Notes under the pieces: model-generated
The model's database searches: none
What the model saw: the letters and a program-made list of their open reading frames with translations, nothing else
Told to the model about the DNA's origin: nothing
Part shown: in pieces, positions 55,305-59,674 of the stretch
Position numbering within the stretch: position 1 is the stretch's first letter
Layout: every line of letters starts with the position of its first letter
Virus record (IMG/VR): IMGVR_UViG_2925897562_000001
DNA: 64,000 nt
Origin: a virus
Taxonomy: Duplodnaviria > Heunggongvirae > Uroviricota > Caudoviricetes
Direction: 5' to 3' (one strand)
Translations under genes and position numbers: made by a program

Positions 55305-56189
55305 ATGCCGGAAGAAAGTAAAGGCTTCCTTAGCGTTGAAGAAGTTGCAGGAAATACAGGAGAAATCCACAGCCTGAAGCCCAATAACAACAGCACTATA
55401 CAACCCATCGCTTTGTTGCGTTTAGGTGTGTTTGTGCCAACCTTAAAATCTACCAATGTGGCGCTACGTCGCGGATCGTCAGTTACAACAAACACAACGA
55501 ACGCAACTGAAGAACTATCAAGCCTCAAAATTGTTGAGCAGGAAGGCTATGAGGGAATTGAAATTCATGGTCCACGCCTGGATATGGATACTGATTTTAA
55601 GGTGTGGGTGGGCATAACCTCCGCGTTGTTTGACTATGCACCTGATGATGACGGTATAATCACCCTGCCATTCTCCGAGTTTGCCGATCGATGCGGCTAT
55701 CCACGTAAGCGTCTTTCAAAGGCGTTCCGTAAAAGTATTGATGACTCTCTGACACGCATTCAGCAGACAGTTGTCAAATTCCGCTTCCCGGCGGCAAAAG
55801 GTCATCTCAATAACATTAACGTCAACTTGTTGGCATATAGCAGCCTGAATACCGAGCTTGATGTTATCGAGATCCAGCCGCAGAAACAGCTATCTGAACT
55901 TTACTATGTTGACTATAAGCGAATCCTGAAGCTGAAGATGCTGGATAAACTAGGGCGCAAAGAGACAGCCAAGGTACTGTATACATTCTTTGAGGCTCTA
56001 CCCGCCAACCCGGCACCTGTCAGCATTGAGCGCCTTAGAGCGAGGCTTAATCTCAAATCATCCGTTAGCGTGCAAAATAGCGTTATCAGAAAAGCCATGA
56101 AAGATTTGGAAGCTATTGAATATCTTAAATTTTCAGAGATAAAAAACGGCAGGAAAATCGGCTTCCAGATCCATAAGCGCAATCCATAA
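55305..56189 (+). CDS. repA: RepA iteron-binding replication initiator
   Basis: 294 aa from ATG 55305; TIQPIALLRLGVFVP and GPRLDMDTDFKVW, which I recall as conserved in P1 RepA; flanked by iterons on both sides. Confidence 0.8.
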   Translation: MPEESKGFLSVEEVAGNTGEIHSLKPNNNSTIQPIALLRLGVFVPTLKSTNVALRRGSSVTTNTTNATEELSSLKIVEQEGYEGIEIHGPRLDMDTDFKVWVGITSALFDYAPDDDGIITLPFSEFADRCGYPRKRLSKAFRKSIDDSLTRIQQTVVKFRFPAAKGHLNNINVNLLAYSSLNTELDVIEIQPQKQLSELYYVDYKRILKLKMLDKLGRKETAKVLYTFFEALPANPAPVSIERLRARLNLKSSVSVQNSVIRKAMKDLEAIEYLKFSEIKNGRKIGFQIHKRNP

Positions 56190-56191
56190 TA

Positions 56192-56446
56192 TTGACTATA
56201 TGCGATAGCGAGAAGTTGACTATAGGCGACATTCGTTGACGCTGGTGGATTTTTGCTGGCGTCAATATTCTGCAAGTCGCTATTGAGATGGCTTTTAGGC
56301 CCATTTCATCGCGTATAGTCAACGTTTCTCCCGACAATATCTTACATAGTCGATCTTTGGTGGAGTTAAATCGACTACAGTCAACTTTTGACTGTAGTCA
56401 CATCGCGCATAGTCAACTATTCACATTAACCTTCGCGCATAGTCAA
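56192..56446. repeat. incA-type iteron array downstream of repA (about nine copies, both orientations)
   Basis: TTGACTATATGCGA, TTGACTATAGGCGAC, then inverted CGCGTATAGTCAA, CGACTACAGTCAA, TTGACTGTAGTCA, CGCGCATAGTCAA x2. Confidence 0.75.
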
Positions 56447-56481
56447 CATTTGCGCGACTCTCATCAAGCAGTGGTATTGAT

Positions 56482-57291
56482 ATGCAAGAAGAGAAACAAC
56501 ACTACCTCTACGTTCTGGTGCCAGAGAACGGAGATACTTTTAAAATCGGCATTTCATGTGGTCCATTGGCACGGTTTAAAGGGCTACAAGTGAGTCCCGA
56601 TTTTGCGCTTTCACGGGTCTATCGTGGTACGCGTTTGGCAATGGTTAATCTTGAGCGGGCTTTACACGCAACCTTTTTCCCCTGGAATGCGCCGTGGGAG
56701 AAAAGCGCCGGTGGCGGGCATACTGAATGGTTTACACGAGAGTGTCTTGATAAGGTTTTGGCTCATATCGAATATCTAAATGATATGTGGGGAGGGATTC
56801 TCGAGCGCATCAAGTCGAATGATTTACTTCAGCGTCCAGTAGATGCTGCTTGCTCTTTCGAAAAAGAGCTGGATGTTACTTCTATCGTGACTTTCAAAGA
56901 TGACGCAGGAATGAGGGACGTGGCTTATGTCTCCATATCTGGCTATGAACCGGACGCGATCCGCGCTCAATGTGAATTGCTGAAAGCAATGTTTATGCTT
57001 CGGACTAAATATCCCTGGGAGACAGGGCGGGTGTGCTTCCCTATGGAAGAGTTAACCGCCACCATTGATTCCCAGCTTTACCACGATAATCCAGAGAAGT
57101 TTTTTAGCCTTTTAGCCGGTAATGGGCTTAACTGTGTGTCCGGGCTGGGGCGAAGTAGAATCCAACATGCCTCGCTCTTCGGTCCCTTCTTTTACGATCG
57201 ACACGGGTACTTTGAGGCTGAACTTCCGGCGCTTACGCGTGCTATAGATACTATCGATTTCGAACGATTATTCGCTGCTCTTAGCAAATAA
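56482..57291 (+). CDS. T5orf172 (GIY-YIG-like) domain protein
   Basis: 269 aa; N-terminal YLYVLVPENGDTFKIGIS...RFKGLQ...LERALHATF...GGGHTEWF fits the T5orf172 signature; ~170-aa C-terminal region unassigned. Confidence 0.6.
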   Translation: MQEEKQHYLYVLVPENGDTFKIGISCGPLARFKGLQVSPDFALSRVYRGTRLAMVNLERALHATFFPWNAPWEKSAGGGHTEWFTRECLDKVLAHIEYLNDMWGGILERIKSNDLLQRPVDAACSFEKELDVTSIVTFKDDAGMRDVAYVSISGYEPDAIRAQCELLKAMFMLRTKYPWETGRVCFPMEELTATIDSQLYHDNPEKFFSLLAGNGLNCVSGLGRSRIQHASLFGPFFYDRHGYFEAELPALTRAIDTIDFERLFAALSK

Positions 57292-57298
57292 CACTGAT

Positions 57299-57320
57299 GC
57301 CCCTGAACGGGGCTTTTTTG
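57299..57320 (+). terminator. intrinsic terminator after the T5orf172 gene
   Basis: GCCCC-TGAA-CGGGGC followed by T6. Confidence 0.6.
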
Positions 57321-57459
57321 TGCCCTCCTTGTAACTCTCAATCGTGCAAAATGAACCAAACATGCAGAGAATGCTATGTACAAGCATCTGTGCATACATT
57401 ATTATTTTATGCAGCATTTTTAAGTAAATTCAAAAATACAGCATAAAGGATGACTTTCG

Positions 57460-58656
57460 ATGAGTGATTCCAGCCAGCTTCACAAGGTTGCTCAAAGAGC
57501 AAACAGAATGCTCAATGTTCTGACTGAACAAGTACAGTTGCAAAAGGATGAGCTACACGCGAACGAGTTTTACCAGGTCTATGCGAAAGCGGCACTGGCA
57601 AAATTGCCTCTACTGACTCGAGCGAACGTTGACTATGCCGTAAGTGAAATGGAAGAAAAGGGTTATGTTTTCGATAAACGCCCTGCTGGCTCTTCAATGA
57701 AATATGCGATGTCAATTCAGAACATCATTGACATATATGAACATCGCGGAGTGCCAAAATACCGGGATCGCTACAGCGAAGCGTATGTGATTTTCATCTC
57801 CAATCTTAAAGGCGGTGTGTCAAAAACTGTATCGACGGTTTCTCTGGCGCATGCAATGCGTGCCCACCCTCATCTTCTGATGGAAGATTTAAGGATTCTG
57901 GTTATTGACCTTGATCCGCAATCTTCAGCGACGATGTTTTTAAGCCATAAACACTCTATTGGTATCGTAAACGCAACATCTGCACAGGCTATGTTGCAGA
58001 ATGTAAGCCGTGAAGAGCTGTTAGAGGAGTTTATTGTTCCTTCTGTTGTACCTGGGGTTGACGTTATGCCTGCGTCGATTGACGATGCCTTTATTGCATC
58101 CGATTGGAGAGAGCTGTGCAATGAGCATCTACCGGGTCAGAACATCCATGCTGTCCTGAAAGAAAATGTGATTGATAAGCTGAAGAGCGATTATGACTTT
58201 ATCCTCGTTGATAGTGGTCCTCACCTTGATGCCTTCCTGAAAAATGCTTTGGCCTCGGCCAATATACTGTTTACACCTCTGCCGCCAGCAACTGTCGATT
58301 TCCATTCATCGCTTAAATACGTTGCCCGCCTTCCTGAGTTGGTAAAACTCATTTCGGATGAAGGCTGCGAGTGCCAGCTTGCGACTAACATTGGTTTTAT
58401 GTCCAAGTTGAGTAACAAGGCAGATCATAAGTATTGCCATAGCCTGGCTAAAGAAGTGTTCGGTGGGGATATGCTCGATGTCGTCCTCCCTCGCCTTGAC
58501 GGTTTTGAACGCTGCGGCGAGTCTTTTGACACTGTTATTTCAGCTAACCCGGCAACGTATGTTGGTAGTGCTGATGCATTGAAGAACGCGCGAATTGCCG
58601 CGGAAGATTTTGCTAAAGCAGTTTTTGACCGTATTGAATTTATCAGATCTAACTGA
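57460..58656 (+). CDS. parA: ParA partition ATPase
   Basis: 398 aa; deviant Walker A NLKGGVSKT; N-terminal HTH extension typical of type Ia ParA. Confidence 0.95.
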   Translation: MSDSSQLHKVAQRANRMLNVLTEQVQLQKDELHANEFYQVYAKAALAKLPLLTRANVDYAVSEMEEKGYVFDKRPAGSSMKYAMSIQNIIDIYEHRGVPKYRDRYSEAYVIFISNLKGGVSKTVSTVSLAHAMRAHPHLLMEDLRILVIDLDPQSSATMFLSHKHSIGIVNATSAQAMLQNVSREELLEEFIVPSVVPGVDVMPASIDDAFIASDWRELCNEHLPGQNIHAVLKENVIDKLKSDYDFILVDSGPHLDAFLKNALASANILFTPLPPATVDFHSSLKYVARLPELVKLISDEGCECQLATNIGFMSKLSNKADHKYCHSLAKEVFGGDMLDVVLPRLDGFERCGESFDTVISANPATYVGSADALKNARIAAEDFAKAVFDRIEFIRSN

Positions 58657-58672
58657 GGAGTAAGAAACCCCC

Positions 58673-59674
58673 ATGTCAAAGAAAAACAGACCAACAATTG
58701 GGCGAACCCTTAATCCTTCAATATTAAGCGGATTTGATAGTTCTTCAGCCTCTGGCGATCGAGTCGAGCAGGTATTCAAGTTATCAACAGGTCGCCAGGC
58801 CACATTTATTGAAGAGGTAATACCTCCGAATCAGGTAGAAAGCGATACCTTTGTTGATCAGCATAACAATGGTCGTGACCAGGCATCTCTTACGCCAAAA
58901 TCATTAAAAAGTATCCGAAGCACTATTAAGCATCAGCAATTTTACCCTGCAATAGGTGTTAGACGGGCTACAGGGAAAATTGAAATTTTGGATGGTTCCC
59001 GGCGTCGAGCTTCTGCCATCTTAGAGAACGTAGGGTTGCGGGTTTTAGTCACGGACCAGGAGATCAGCGTTCAGGAAGCGCAAAATTTAGCGAAAGACGT
59101 TCAGACAGCATTGCAGCACAGCATTCGAGAAATAGGTCTGCGTTTGATGCGAATGAAAAATGATGGGATGAGTCAGAAGGATATTGCAGCCAAAGAAGGG
59201 CTATCTCAGGCGAAGGTCACGCGTGCTCTCCAGGCAGCGAGTGCTCCGGAAGAATTAGTCGCCCTTTTCCCTGTGCAGTCGGAATTGACCTTTTCGGACT
59301 ACAAAACGCTTTGTGCTGTTGGCGACGAAATGGGGAACAAGAATTTAGAGTTTGATCAGCTTATTCAAAACATATCCCCGGAAATAAACGACATCTTATC
59401 CATTGAAGAAATGGCCGAAGATGAAGTTAAAAATAAAATCCTGCGCTTGATAACAAAGGAAGCCTCACTACTCACGGATAAAGGTTCTAAAGATAAGTCC
59501 GTAGTTACTGAATTATGGAAATTTGAGGACAAGGATCGCTTTGCAAGGAAGCGCGTGAAAGGCCGTGCATTTTCTTATGAGTTTAATCGACTTTCAAAAG
59601 AGTTACAGGAAGAACTCGACAGGATGATTGGGCATATCCTTAGAAAGAGCCTCGATAAAAAGCCGAAGCCTTAA
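58673..59674 (+). CDS. parB: ParB centromere-binding protein
   Basis: 333 aa; immediately followed by parS. Confidence 0.95.
   Translation: MSKKNRPTIGRTLNPSILSGFDSSSASGDRVEQVFKLSTGRQATFIEEVIPPNQVESDTFVDQHNNGRDQASLTPKSLKSIRSTIKHQQFYPAIGVRRATGKIEILDGSRRRASAILENVGLRVLVTDQEISVQEAQNLAKDVQTALQHSIREIGLRLMRMKNDGMSQKDIAAKEGLSQAKVTRALQAASAPEELVALFPVQSELTFSDYKTLCAVGDEMGNKNLEFDQLIQNISPEINDILSIEEMAEDEVKNKILRLITKEASLLTDKGSKDKSVVTELWKFEDKDRFARKRVKGRAFSYEFNRLSKELQEELDRMIGHILRKSLDKKPKP

What the first reader, a model, noticed from the sequence alone, without database searches (positions are those of the whole stretch)
56482..57291. T5orf172/GIY-YIG-like protein wedged between the repA iterons and parA
In P1-type plasmids the incA iteron array is followed directly by parA. 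Here a 269-aa gene with its own terminator is inserted. Its N-terminus fits the T5orf172 signature (YLYVL..KIGIS..RF.GL..LH..F...GG.TEWF), a GIY-YIG-related fold found in homing-endonuclease-like and defence-associated proteins, and the C-terminal 170 aa are unassigned. Placement at the replication/partition junction, where RepA and its iterons differ from what I recall for P1 while ParA/ParB look P1-type, suggests a selfish mobile nuclease gene or a plasmid-competition/defence factor at a recombination seam.
Basis: partly seen in the sequence, partly recalled or inferred. Interest (0 to 1): 0.65.

Follow-up and report, generated by a model that had tools for sequence, protein, structure and literature searches.

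The report
Nuclease gene riding P1-plasmid replicon cassettes
A real, already-annotated GIY-YIG/T5orf172 nuclease gene sits between the copy-control repeats and the partition genes of a common P1-like phage-plasmid; it is exchanged together with the replication module, is dispensable, and probably acts as a selfish or plasmid-competition nuclease, though nobody has tested this.

Summary
Window 56482-57291 encodes a 269-aa protein with a T5orf172 match above Pfam's threshold and its own terminator. P1 has no gene at this spot. The gene is not a lone insertion. It is the last gene of a 2,250-bp cassette (origin iterons, repA of the p0111 type, control iterons, nuclease, terminator) that replaces P1's IncY iterons-repA-incA exactly. 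Three other, very divergent alleles (25-44% identity) occupy the same position in other P1-like elements, each travelling with its own RepA/iteron type. The start codon always lies 22-30 bp after the last iteron. Structure prediction shows an SLX1-like GIY-YIG domain plus a C-terminal winged helix. The best, but modest, matches of that helix are the WH1 domains of iteron-binding plasmid initiators, which recalls the phage ICP1 origin-directed nuclease Odn. The gene is in 411 of 5,426 complete E. coli genomes. It evolves far faster than its neighbours (pN/pS 0.34 versus 0.02 and 0.00) and is knocked out in about 19% of sampled copies, so it is an accessory gene. The best reading is a homing-type or competition nuclease at the boundary between the replication and partition modules. 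Databases already call it a GIY-YIG nuclease; its function is untested.

The parts
55108..57357 (+). Replicon cassette that replaces P1's incC iterons, repA (IncY), incA and ~170 bp. It holds the origin iterons, p0111-type repA, control iterons, the nuclease gene and a terminator.
   Evidence: blastn window vs P1: the left arm ends at window 55107 = P1 locus L002 3506, and the right arm starts at 57358 = L002 4998. The equivalent cassette boundaries appear between the near-isogenic backbones L003 and L004.
55123..55223 (+). Five direct origin iterons (16-nt core TGTTGACTATACGCGA, 21-22 bp spacing), equivalent to P1 incC.
   Evidence: the repeat finder family D1; pattern scan.
55305..56189 (+). 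repA, a Rep_3-type initiator of the p0111 type: 42% identical to P1 RepA and 45-48% to RepFIB initiators.
   Evidence: Pfam Rep3_N/Rep3_C; RefSeq annotation of RCS47; identities; p0111 naming from PMC9603915.
56190..56452 (.). Downstream control iteron array, the incA analogue: two direct copies (56190, 56214) and four inverted copies (56307, 56369, 56401, 56431). The last one ends 30 bp before the nuclease ATG.
   Evidence: The same geometry (22-30 bp from last iteron to ATG) is seen in L003, L004 and L005, which carry three unrelated iteron sequences.
56482..56826 (+). orf269 N-terminal domain (aa 1-115): T5orf172/GIY-YIG nuclease domain with invariant Y10, K21, G23, R31, E58, H62, E82-W83-F84.
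56827..57291 (+). orf269 C-terminal domain (aa 116-269) plus stop codon: predicted winged-helix alpha/beta domain, most like the WH1 of Rep_3 initiators. No sequence-level family.
57299..57323 (+). Intrinsic terminator-like hairpin (GCCCC-TGAAC-GGGGC) followed by a T-run. It closes the cassette.
   Evidence: sequence.
57460..59674 (+). parA-parB partition operon, given as context (P1 type, 100% identical proteins). It marks the start of the backbone to the right of the seam.

Best explanation
orf269 encodes a two-domain, site-specific DNA endonuclease. It has an N-terminal T5orf172/GIY-YIG catalytic domain and a C-terminal winged-helix DNA-binding domain that resembles the WH1 domain of iteron-binding Rep initiators. 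It is an accessory, selfish passenger of the plasmid-replicon cassette and not part of the replication machinery. Proposed mechanism (inferred, not shown): the gene has no promoter of its own and starts 22-30 bp after the last control iteron, so it is transcribed at a low level by read-through from the RepA-autoregulated repA promoter. Expression would therefore peak when RepA is scarce, for example just after entry into a new cell. The enzyme then cuts a related P1-type plasmid that lacks the cassette, near the boundary between the replication and partition modules. Recombinational repair uses the nuclease-bearing plasmid as template and copies the nuclease gene together with the adjacent, non-homologous iteron-repA block (co-conversion), as far as the nearest shared sequence in oriR on the left and Ppar on the right. 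This is homing-endonuclease behaviour at a module boundary, and it would spread both the nuclease and its linked replicon type.
Against: No cleavage activity or target is known. Within the p0111 replicon type the gene is essentially fixed (400 vs ~397 PLSDB records), so the presence/absence polymorphism typical of active homing endonucleases is missing there. No nuclease-less p0111 cassette that could serve as a homing target was found. The IncY-linked allele (L004) is rare and absent from PLSDB and INPHARED. Linkage of adjacent genes alone could explain why nuclease and repA travel together. The protein lacks the Zn-finger DNA-binding domains found in 87% of T5orf172 homing endonucleases. The read-through model rests only on the absence of consensus matches. 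A pN/pS of 0.34 with frequent knockouts also fits a gene that is simply decaying.
Confidence: 0.4

Rival explanations
1. Odn-like origin-directed nuclease used for plasmid-versus-plasmid competition. The Rep-WH1-like C-terminal domain would recognise the iterons, or a RepA-iteron complex, of a rival P1-type replicon. The GIY-YIG domain would then cut it, eliminating a competitor that shares the same partition and immunity functions. No homing or gene conversion is needed.
For: ICP1 Odn has exactly this logic: a T5orf172 nuclease plus a RepA-derived DNA-binding domain, with iteron-dependent cleavage (PMC8263062). Here the top structural matches of the C-terminal domain, in two libraries and by two methods, are iteron-binding initiators. 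The nuclease allele co-varies with RepA/iteron type. IncY and p0111 elements share 100% identical ParA/ParB, so they should compete for partition. The C-terminal domain diverges fast (32% identity between window and L003 although their iterons are the same; pN/pS 0.40), as expected in an arms race.
Confidence: 0.2
2. Accessory replication or copy-control factor. The Rep-like winged helix would bind the plasmid's own iterons or RepA, for example to nick at the origin, resolve handcuffed plasmid pairs, or modulate RepA availability.
For: The gene sits immediately next to the control iterons, in a geometry conserved across four alleles and three iteron types. It is inherited with RepA and the iterons as a unit. 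The C-terminal fold is WH1-like, and WH1 is also the Rep dimerisation domain.
Against: P1 and hundreds of IncY plasmids replicate and are maintained without such a gene. About 19% of natural copies are inactivated while repA and parA never are. Selective constraint is far weaker than on repA (pN/pS 0.34 vs 0.02). Window and L003 share iterons and an 84%-identical RepA, yet their C-terminal domains are only 32% identical.
Confidence: 0.15
3. Stand-alone anti-phage or anti-mobile-element defence nuclease carried as cargo by the phage-plasmid.
For: Some distant N-domain relatives lie in island-like contexts with Mrr, WYL or toxin-antitoxin-like genes. GIY-YIG/T5orf172 domains do occur in conflict systems (established knowledge). 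The gene evolves fast.
Against: No PADLOC model matches. There is no partner gene. The strict position inside the replicon cassette, rather than in the known variable cargo regions of P1-like elements, is not explained by this reading. The full-length family is confined to P1-like elements.
Confidence: 0.1
4. A functionless relic: a formerly active nuclease gene that persists in the p0111 cassette only through linkage to repA and is decaying.
For: Frequent stops, frameshifts and IS insertions, and a much higher pN than the neighbours. The ribosome-binding sites look weak.
Against: pN/pS is still well below 1 (0.27 in the nuclease domain). Catalytic residues are never polymorphic in intact alleles. 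Full-length ORFs with invariant active-site residues persist across alleles that have diverged to 25% identity, which requires long-term selection.
Confidence: 0.1

Closest known systems
Odn (Gp88) of vibriophage ICP1, the origin-directed nuclease (PMC8263062)
   Same: Both are two-domain proteins that combine a T5orf172/GIY-YIG nuclease with a DNA-binding domain of replication-initiator type. Both are linked to the diversity of replicon (RepA plus iteron) modules.
   Different: The domain order is reversed: here the nuclease is N-terminal. Odn's binding domain is 42% identical to a RepA_N initiator, whereas here the resemblance is only structural, to Rep_3 WH1, with modest scores and no sequence signal. 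Odn is encoded by the enemy of the replicon it cuts, whereas this gene lies inside a replicon cassette. No activity is known here.
Free-standing T5orf172 homing endonucleases of ICP1 and other phages (PMC10448857)
   Same: Same nuclease family: nearest phage relatives at 32-37% identity, and a phrog_681 match. Both sit exactly at boundaries of exchanged modules and next to essential genes, with modular and fast-changing binding domains.
   Different: Those proteins almost always use CapR/DUF723/DUF4397 Zn-finger domains, and this one has none. Here the host is a plasmid replicon in a temperate phage-plasmid, and the gene is fixed rather than sporadic within its replicon type.
SLX1 / I-TevI / UvrC-type GIY-YIG nucleases
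   Different: Lys replaces the second motif Tyr ('KIG' instead of 'YIG'), as in T5orf172 proteins. The partner domains and the biology are unrelated.
P1 plasmid replicon (oriR/incC - repA - incA) followed by parAB
   Same: Same overall layout: shared DnaA-box/GATC part of oriR, origin iterons, a Rep_3-family RepA, a downstream control iteron array, then an identical P1 par operon.
   Different: RepA is 42% identical, the iterons are unrelated in sequence, and an extra 269-aa nuclease gene plus terminator follows the control iterons.
CapR of the PLE satellites, a regulator related to T5orf172 homing endonucleases (PMC10448857; bioRxiv 10.1101/2020.11.28.402263)
   Same: It shows that proteins of this lineage can be repurposed as sequence-specific DNA binders, which is one possible non-nucleolytic role.
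   Different: Here the catalytic-type residues are strictly conserved, which argues for an active enzyme. The DNA-binding domain is also of a different type (winged helix, not Zn finger).

Membership tests
T5orf172 (PF10544) / GIY-YIG nuclease superfamily | Profile match above the curated threshold | tested here: met
   PF10544 at E 4.7e-6, 27.5 bits versus a cut-off of 20, aa 8-85; weaker MUG113 and Tox-URI2 matches from the same clan; phrog_681 endonuclease at E 5.5e-9.
T5orf172 (PF10544) / GIY-YIG nuclease superfamily | GIY-YIG alpha/beta fold | tested here: met
T5orf172 (PF10544) / GIY-YIG nuclease superfamily | Conserved active-site residues (Tyr of motif 1, Gly of motif 2, Arg, metal-binding Glu) | tested here: met
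   Y10, K21-I-G23, R31, E58, H62 and E82 are invariant in 23 sequences and in the four full-length alleles. The register for Y10, K21/G23 and R31 is confirmed by the HMM alignment to 1ywl. The assignment of E82 as the metal ligand is by analogy and was not tested.
T5orf172 (PF10544) / GIY-YIG nuclease superfamily | Nuclease activity | not testable with these tools
   Requires purified protein and DNA substrates.
Free-standing homing endonuclease gene | Presence/absence polymorphism at one site among otherwise homologous genomes | tested here: inconclusive
   The gene is absent from P1 and from 359 E. coli genomes with IncY repA-incA, but present with an IncY-like RepA in L004. It is fixed with p0111 RepA.
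Free-standing homing endonuclease gene | Location at the edge of recombination tracts or module boundaries | tested here: met
   Seams lie 63-84 bp after the stop codon in two independent exchanges. Par-module swaps occur at the same junction.
Free-standing homing endonuclease gene | Cleaves the nuclease-less allele near its own insertion site, with co-conversion of flanks | not testable with these tools
   Needs in vitro cleavage mapping and genetic crosses.
Free-standing homing endonuclease gene | Zn-finger DNA-binding modules typical of T5orf172 homing endonucleases (CapR/DUF723/DUF4397) | tested here: not met
   No Pfam match in the C-terminal half, no conserved Cys motif in the 4-allele alignment, and a predicted winged-helix fold instead. 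The feature is as described in PMC10448857.
Odn-type origin-directed nuclease | DNA-binding domain homologous in sequence to a RepA initiator | tested here: not met
   hhalign of the C-terminal-domain profile against the P1-family RepA profile gives probability 0.15%. No Rep hits in PDB or Pfam sequence searches.
Odn-type origin-directed nuclease | DNA-binding domain with an initiator-like fold | tested here: inconclusive
Odn-type origin-directed nuclease | Iteron-dependent cleavage of a replication origin | not testable with these tools
   Needs nuclease assays on origin fragments with and without iterons.
Known anti-phage defence systems (PADLOC-DB v2) | Match to a defence-system protein model | tested here: not met
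   0 families at E up to 1.
Core component of the P1-type plasmid replicon | Present and intact wherever the replicon functions | tested here: not met
   Absent from P1. Disrupted in 8 of 43 IMG/VR copies while repA and parA stay intact. Truncated by IS1 or an IS605-type element in others.

The most novel reading that the evidence does not exclude
The protein is a replicon-warfare nuclease. Its Rep-WH1-like domain would read the iterons, or dock onto the iteron-bound RepA, of a rival P1-type replicon. The GIY-YIG domain would then destroy or convert that replicon at the moment of entry, when the RepA-repressed promoter is open. This would decide which of two partition-incompatible P1-like prophages survives, and it would drive the turnover between IncY and p0111 replicon types seen in E. 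coli. It would be a plasmid-borne counterpart of ICP1's Odn that evolved independently from a Rep_3-type fold.
Probability: 0.15. Interest if true: 0.8.

Novelty: new variant of a known kind. Interest (0 to 1): 0.5.

Why it matters
P1 is the textbook iteron plasmid, and P1-like phage-plasmids are now recognised carriers of resistance genes in E. coli and Salmonella. The nuclease-bearing p0111 cassette is in 7.6% of complete E. coli genomes, and the nuclease-free IncY replicon in 6.6%. If the nuclease drives or polices exchange of the replicon cassette, it would explain how replicon types turn over in otherwise conserved phage-plasmid backbones. It would extend the 'nucleases at boundaries of exchange' idea from lytic phages to plasmid replicons. 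It would also give a second, independent example of a nuclease that borrows an initiator-like DNA-binding fold. The hypothesis is cheap to test with mini-P1 plasmids. If the gene proves to be an inert passenger, the result still clarifies the structure of a widely used replicon-typing target.

Tried and rejected
(1) Defence-system assignment: PADLOC and NCBIfam gave no match. (2) Sequence homology between the C-terminal domain and RepA, as in Odn: hhalign probability 0.15%, and PDB and Pfam profile searches on the domain alone were empty. (3) A remnant of the gene in P1: tblastn and sensitive blastn against the P1 incA-Ppar interval found nothing. (4) The 168-aa cluster P0003 (229 members) looked like widespread N-terminal truncation, but it is an artefact of a contig starting inside the gene, so it was not counted as a pseudogene. 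(5) A general replicon association for the wider N-domain family: three distant relatives lie in unrelated mobile-element or island contexts, so the replicon linkage is specific to the P1-like subfamily. (6) More divergent alleles: scans of GTDB species genomes and IMG/VR returned only the window-type allele, and the L004 and L005 alleles are absent from PLSDB and INPHARED. (8) Foreign base composition: the gene's GC of 0.478 equals the window mean of 0.483. (9) An independent promoter: the consensus scan found no plus-strand site between the repA stop and the ATG. This is weak negative evidence only.

Full report
Observation. The ORF is exactly as described: 56482..57291 on the + strand, ATG start, 269 aa. 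Pfam T5orf172 (PF10544) matches residues 8-85 at E 4.7e-6 and 27.5 bits, above the curated cut-off of 20. Weaker matches go to the related MUG113 and URI-fold models. PHROGs places the whole protein in phrog_2876 (unknown function) and the N-terminus in phrog_681 'endonuclease'. A GC-rich hairpin with a T-run follows the stop codon at 57299-57313. repA is flanked by iterons: five direct copies at 55123-55223, and two direct plus four inverted copies at 56190-56452. NCBIfam and PADLOC give nothing.

What the window is. The region is 98-99% identical to the P1-like phage-plasmids phi456, SJ46, RCS47 and JL22, among others. RefSeq already labels the gene 'GIY-YIG nuclease family protein', and one record labels it 'T5orf172 domain-containing protein'. 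The literature on P1-like phage-plasmids recognises two replicon types, IncY (P1) and p0111. [quoted passage not shown] MOB-suite, as used by PLSDB, calls this replicon 'IncHI1B'.

The gene belongs to a cassette and is not a lone insertion. Homology to P1 runs up to window 55107, which corresponds to P1 just after the Dam-site part of oriR and 16 bp before the first iteron. It resumes at 57358, about 20 bp upstream of the Ppar -35 element. In between, 2,250 bp (origin iterons, repA, control iterons, orf269, terminator) replace 1,491 bp of P1 (incC iterons, repA, incA and about 170 bp). RepA is 42% identical to P1 RepA, while ParA, ParB and the major head protein are 100% identical. P1 retains no trace of such a gene. 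In PLSDB the gene occurs in 400 records, all at least 90% identical, and RepA of this type (at least 80% identity) in about 397. The next-nearest initiators (RepFIB, 45-48% identity) have no such neighbour. Larger plasmids that carry the gene are co-integrates which still hold the P1 backbone.

A small, fast-evolving family tied to P1-like replicons. Searches of 5.8 billion and 1.84 billion proteins found only three other full-length relatives. All three sit between a Rep_3-type initiator with its iterons and parA, in P1-like contigs (L003, L004, L005). L003 and L004 have almost identical backbones (UpfB 98%, ParA 100%, ParB 98%, gp23 99%). Yet L003 carries a p0111-like RepA (84% to the window) and L004 a P1/IncY-like RepA (83% to P1). 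Their nuclease alleles are only 28% identical. The exchanged block between them again starts at the first origin iteron and ends 63-84 bp after the nuclease stop codon. L005 has a third RepA type and a fourth nuclease allele. So the nuclease travels with RepA and the iterons as a unit, and it occurs with at least three iteron specificities, including an IncY-like one, although P1 itself lacks it. In all four alleles the start codon lies 22-30 bp after the last inverted iteron, even though the three iteron types are unrelated in sequence. The consensus scan finds neither a promoter nor a terminator between the repA stop and the ATG. I infer from this that transcription is coupled to the RepA-autoregulated repA promoter, but this is not shown.

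The same junction is a general module boundary. Many IncY plasmids match P1 only up to the last incA iteron and then carry a P7-type par operon (ParA 401 aa, ParB 321 aa) with no nuclease gene. The nuclease gene therefore sits precisely on the boundary between the replication and partition modules.

Population genetics. My sample comprised the window plus 53 window-type loci from PLSDB, INPHARED, GTDB and IMG/VR. In it, repA has pN/pS 0.02 (5 protein variants among 30 nucleotide alleles) and parA has 0.00 (2 protein variants). The nuclease gene has 0.34 (25 protein variants among 29 alleles), split as 0.27 in the nuclease domain and 0.40 in the C-terminal domain. None of the invariant active-site codons is polymorphic in intact alleles. 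In the unbiased IMG/VR subset, 8 of 43 copies are disrupted. These are stops at codon 68, codon 112 (five contigs) and codon 228 (a 103,445-bp contig, the same length as the SJ46 record), plus an IS200/IS605-type insertion. PLSDB adds a frameshift, a stop at codon 93 and an IS1 truncation. repA and parA carry no stop codons in the same loci. The gene is therefore dispensable for plasmid maintenance and only weakly constrained in the short term. Even so, it has kept a full-length ORF and its active-site residues across divergence down to 25% identity. It is common: 411 of 5,426 complete E. coli genomes carry it, compared with 359 that carry the IncY repA-incA.

Interpretation. What is shown: a conserved GIY-YIG/T5orf172 domain with active-site residues intact; a separate winged-helix domain; position on a module boundary; inheritance with the replicon cassette; and dispensability with rapid evolution. 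What is inferred: the protein is a site-specific endonuclease that acts on related P1-type plasmids. Known T5orf172 proteins provide three models, all from ICP1 and its PLE satellites. These are homing endonucleases at boundaries of genetic exchange (PMC10448857), the origin-directed nuclease Odn, whose binding domain copies a RepA and which cuts at iterons (PMC8263062), and the domesticated repressor CapR. I favour a homing-type role (0.4). A cut in a cassette-less relative at the rep/par boundary would be repaired from the nuclease-bearing plasmid. Because iterons and repA are non-homologous between types, the conversion tract would extend to the first shared sequence in oriR and Ppar, which is exactly where the seams lie. 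The Odn-like competition model (0.2) is the more novel alternative and is suggested by the Rep-like fold and the co-variation with replicon type. A role in the plasmid's own replication (0.15) is disfavoured by dispensability. A defence role (0.1) has no specific support. Pure decay (0.1) conflicts with the long-term conservation.

Novelty and score. Four things appear to be undescribed: its constant membership in replicon cassettes of several specificities; the conserved abutment to the control iterons; the Rep-WH1-like C-terminal fold; and the contrast in selective constraint with its neighbours. No paper in the searchable library holds both 'T5orf172' and 'P1-like'. I rate it a new variant of a known kind, of moderate interest (0.5), and readily testable with mini-P1 genetics.

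Noticed in passing
L064 4645-4761 and L065 (IncY plasmids NZ_CP092238, NZ_CP086387); corresponds to the window junction near 57358: Many IncY P1-like plasmids match P1 only up to the last incA iteron and then carry a P7-type par operon (ParA 401 aa, ParB 321 aa). The incA/par junction is therefore a general recombination boundary between replication and partition modules, independent of the nuclease gene.
   Followed up: partly
window 55907-55922: A well-matched iteron copy (TGTTGACTATAAGCGA, 94% to the reference copy) lies inside the repA coding sequence. It is conserved at the equivalent place in L003 (7614).
   Followed up: no
L040 (IMG/VR contig of 103,445 bp, the same length as the Salmonella phage SJ46 record), nuclease codon 228: This copy has a premature stop at codon 228, which may explain the 'hypothetical protein' label in the SJ46 records. 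Five other IMG/VR contigs (L042-L046) share a stop at codon 112.
   Followed up: partly
L060 4295-6057: A 1,763-bp IS200/IS605-type element (TnpA-like 102 aa and TnpB-like 389 aa ORFs) replaces 230 bp of the nuclease gene. The identification comes from reading the ORFs and was not confirmed by a profile search.
   Followed up: partly
L012 (NZ_AP027538.1, 231-kb IncFIB plasmid): A P1-backbone fragment (parAB, head and sheath genes) is embedded in a large plasmid. IS1 has removed repA and all but the last 86 codons of the nuclease gene, and bcsA/bcsB cellulose-synthesis genes lie next to it.
   Followed up: no
OR339795.1 (phage phi456), hits H1 and H162: The nuclease gene is annotated there as 'terminase small subunit', which is almost certainly a mis-annotation. 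PLSDB/MOB-suite types this replicon as 'IncHI1B', whereas the literature calls it p0111.
   Followed up: no
L003 8001-8123: The gene call for P0004 (311 aa) starts 41 codons too early and reads through the inverted iterons (repeated 'AYSQH' peptide). The homologous start is the Met at L003 8124.
   Followed up: yes
window 52857-53141 and 53093-53938: upfC (PAAR-motif protein) and upfB lie upstream, as in P1. UpfB is only 93% identical to P1's while PpfA is 99%. The left arm as a whole is 96.8% identical to P1 against 99.2% for the right arm, so divergence is asymmetric around the cassette.
   Followed up: no
L007 (chromosome CP168302.1) and L008 (JGI contig): Distant relatives of the nuclease domain, of similar length (about 290 aa) but with unrelated C-terminal halves, lie next to Mrr_cat/WYL genes and next to a relaxase-TrbM-UmuDC block. 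This suggests a broader family of T5orf172 proteins with variable C-terminal domains in mobile elements.
   Followed up: partly
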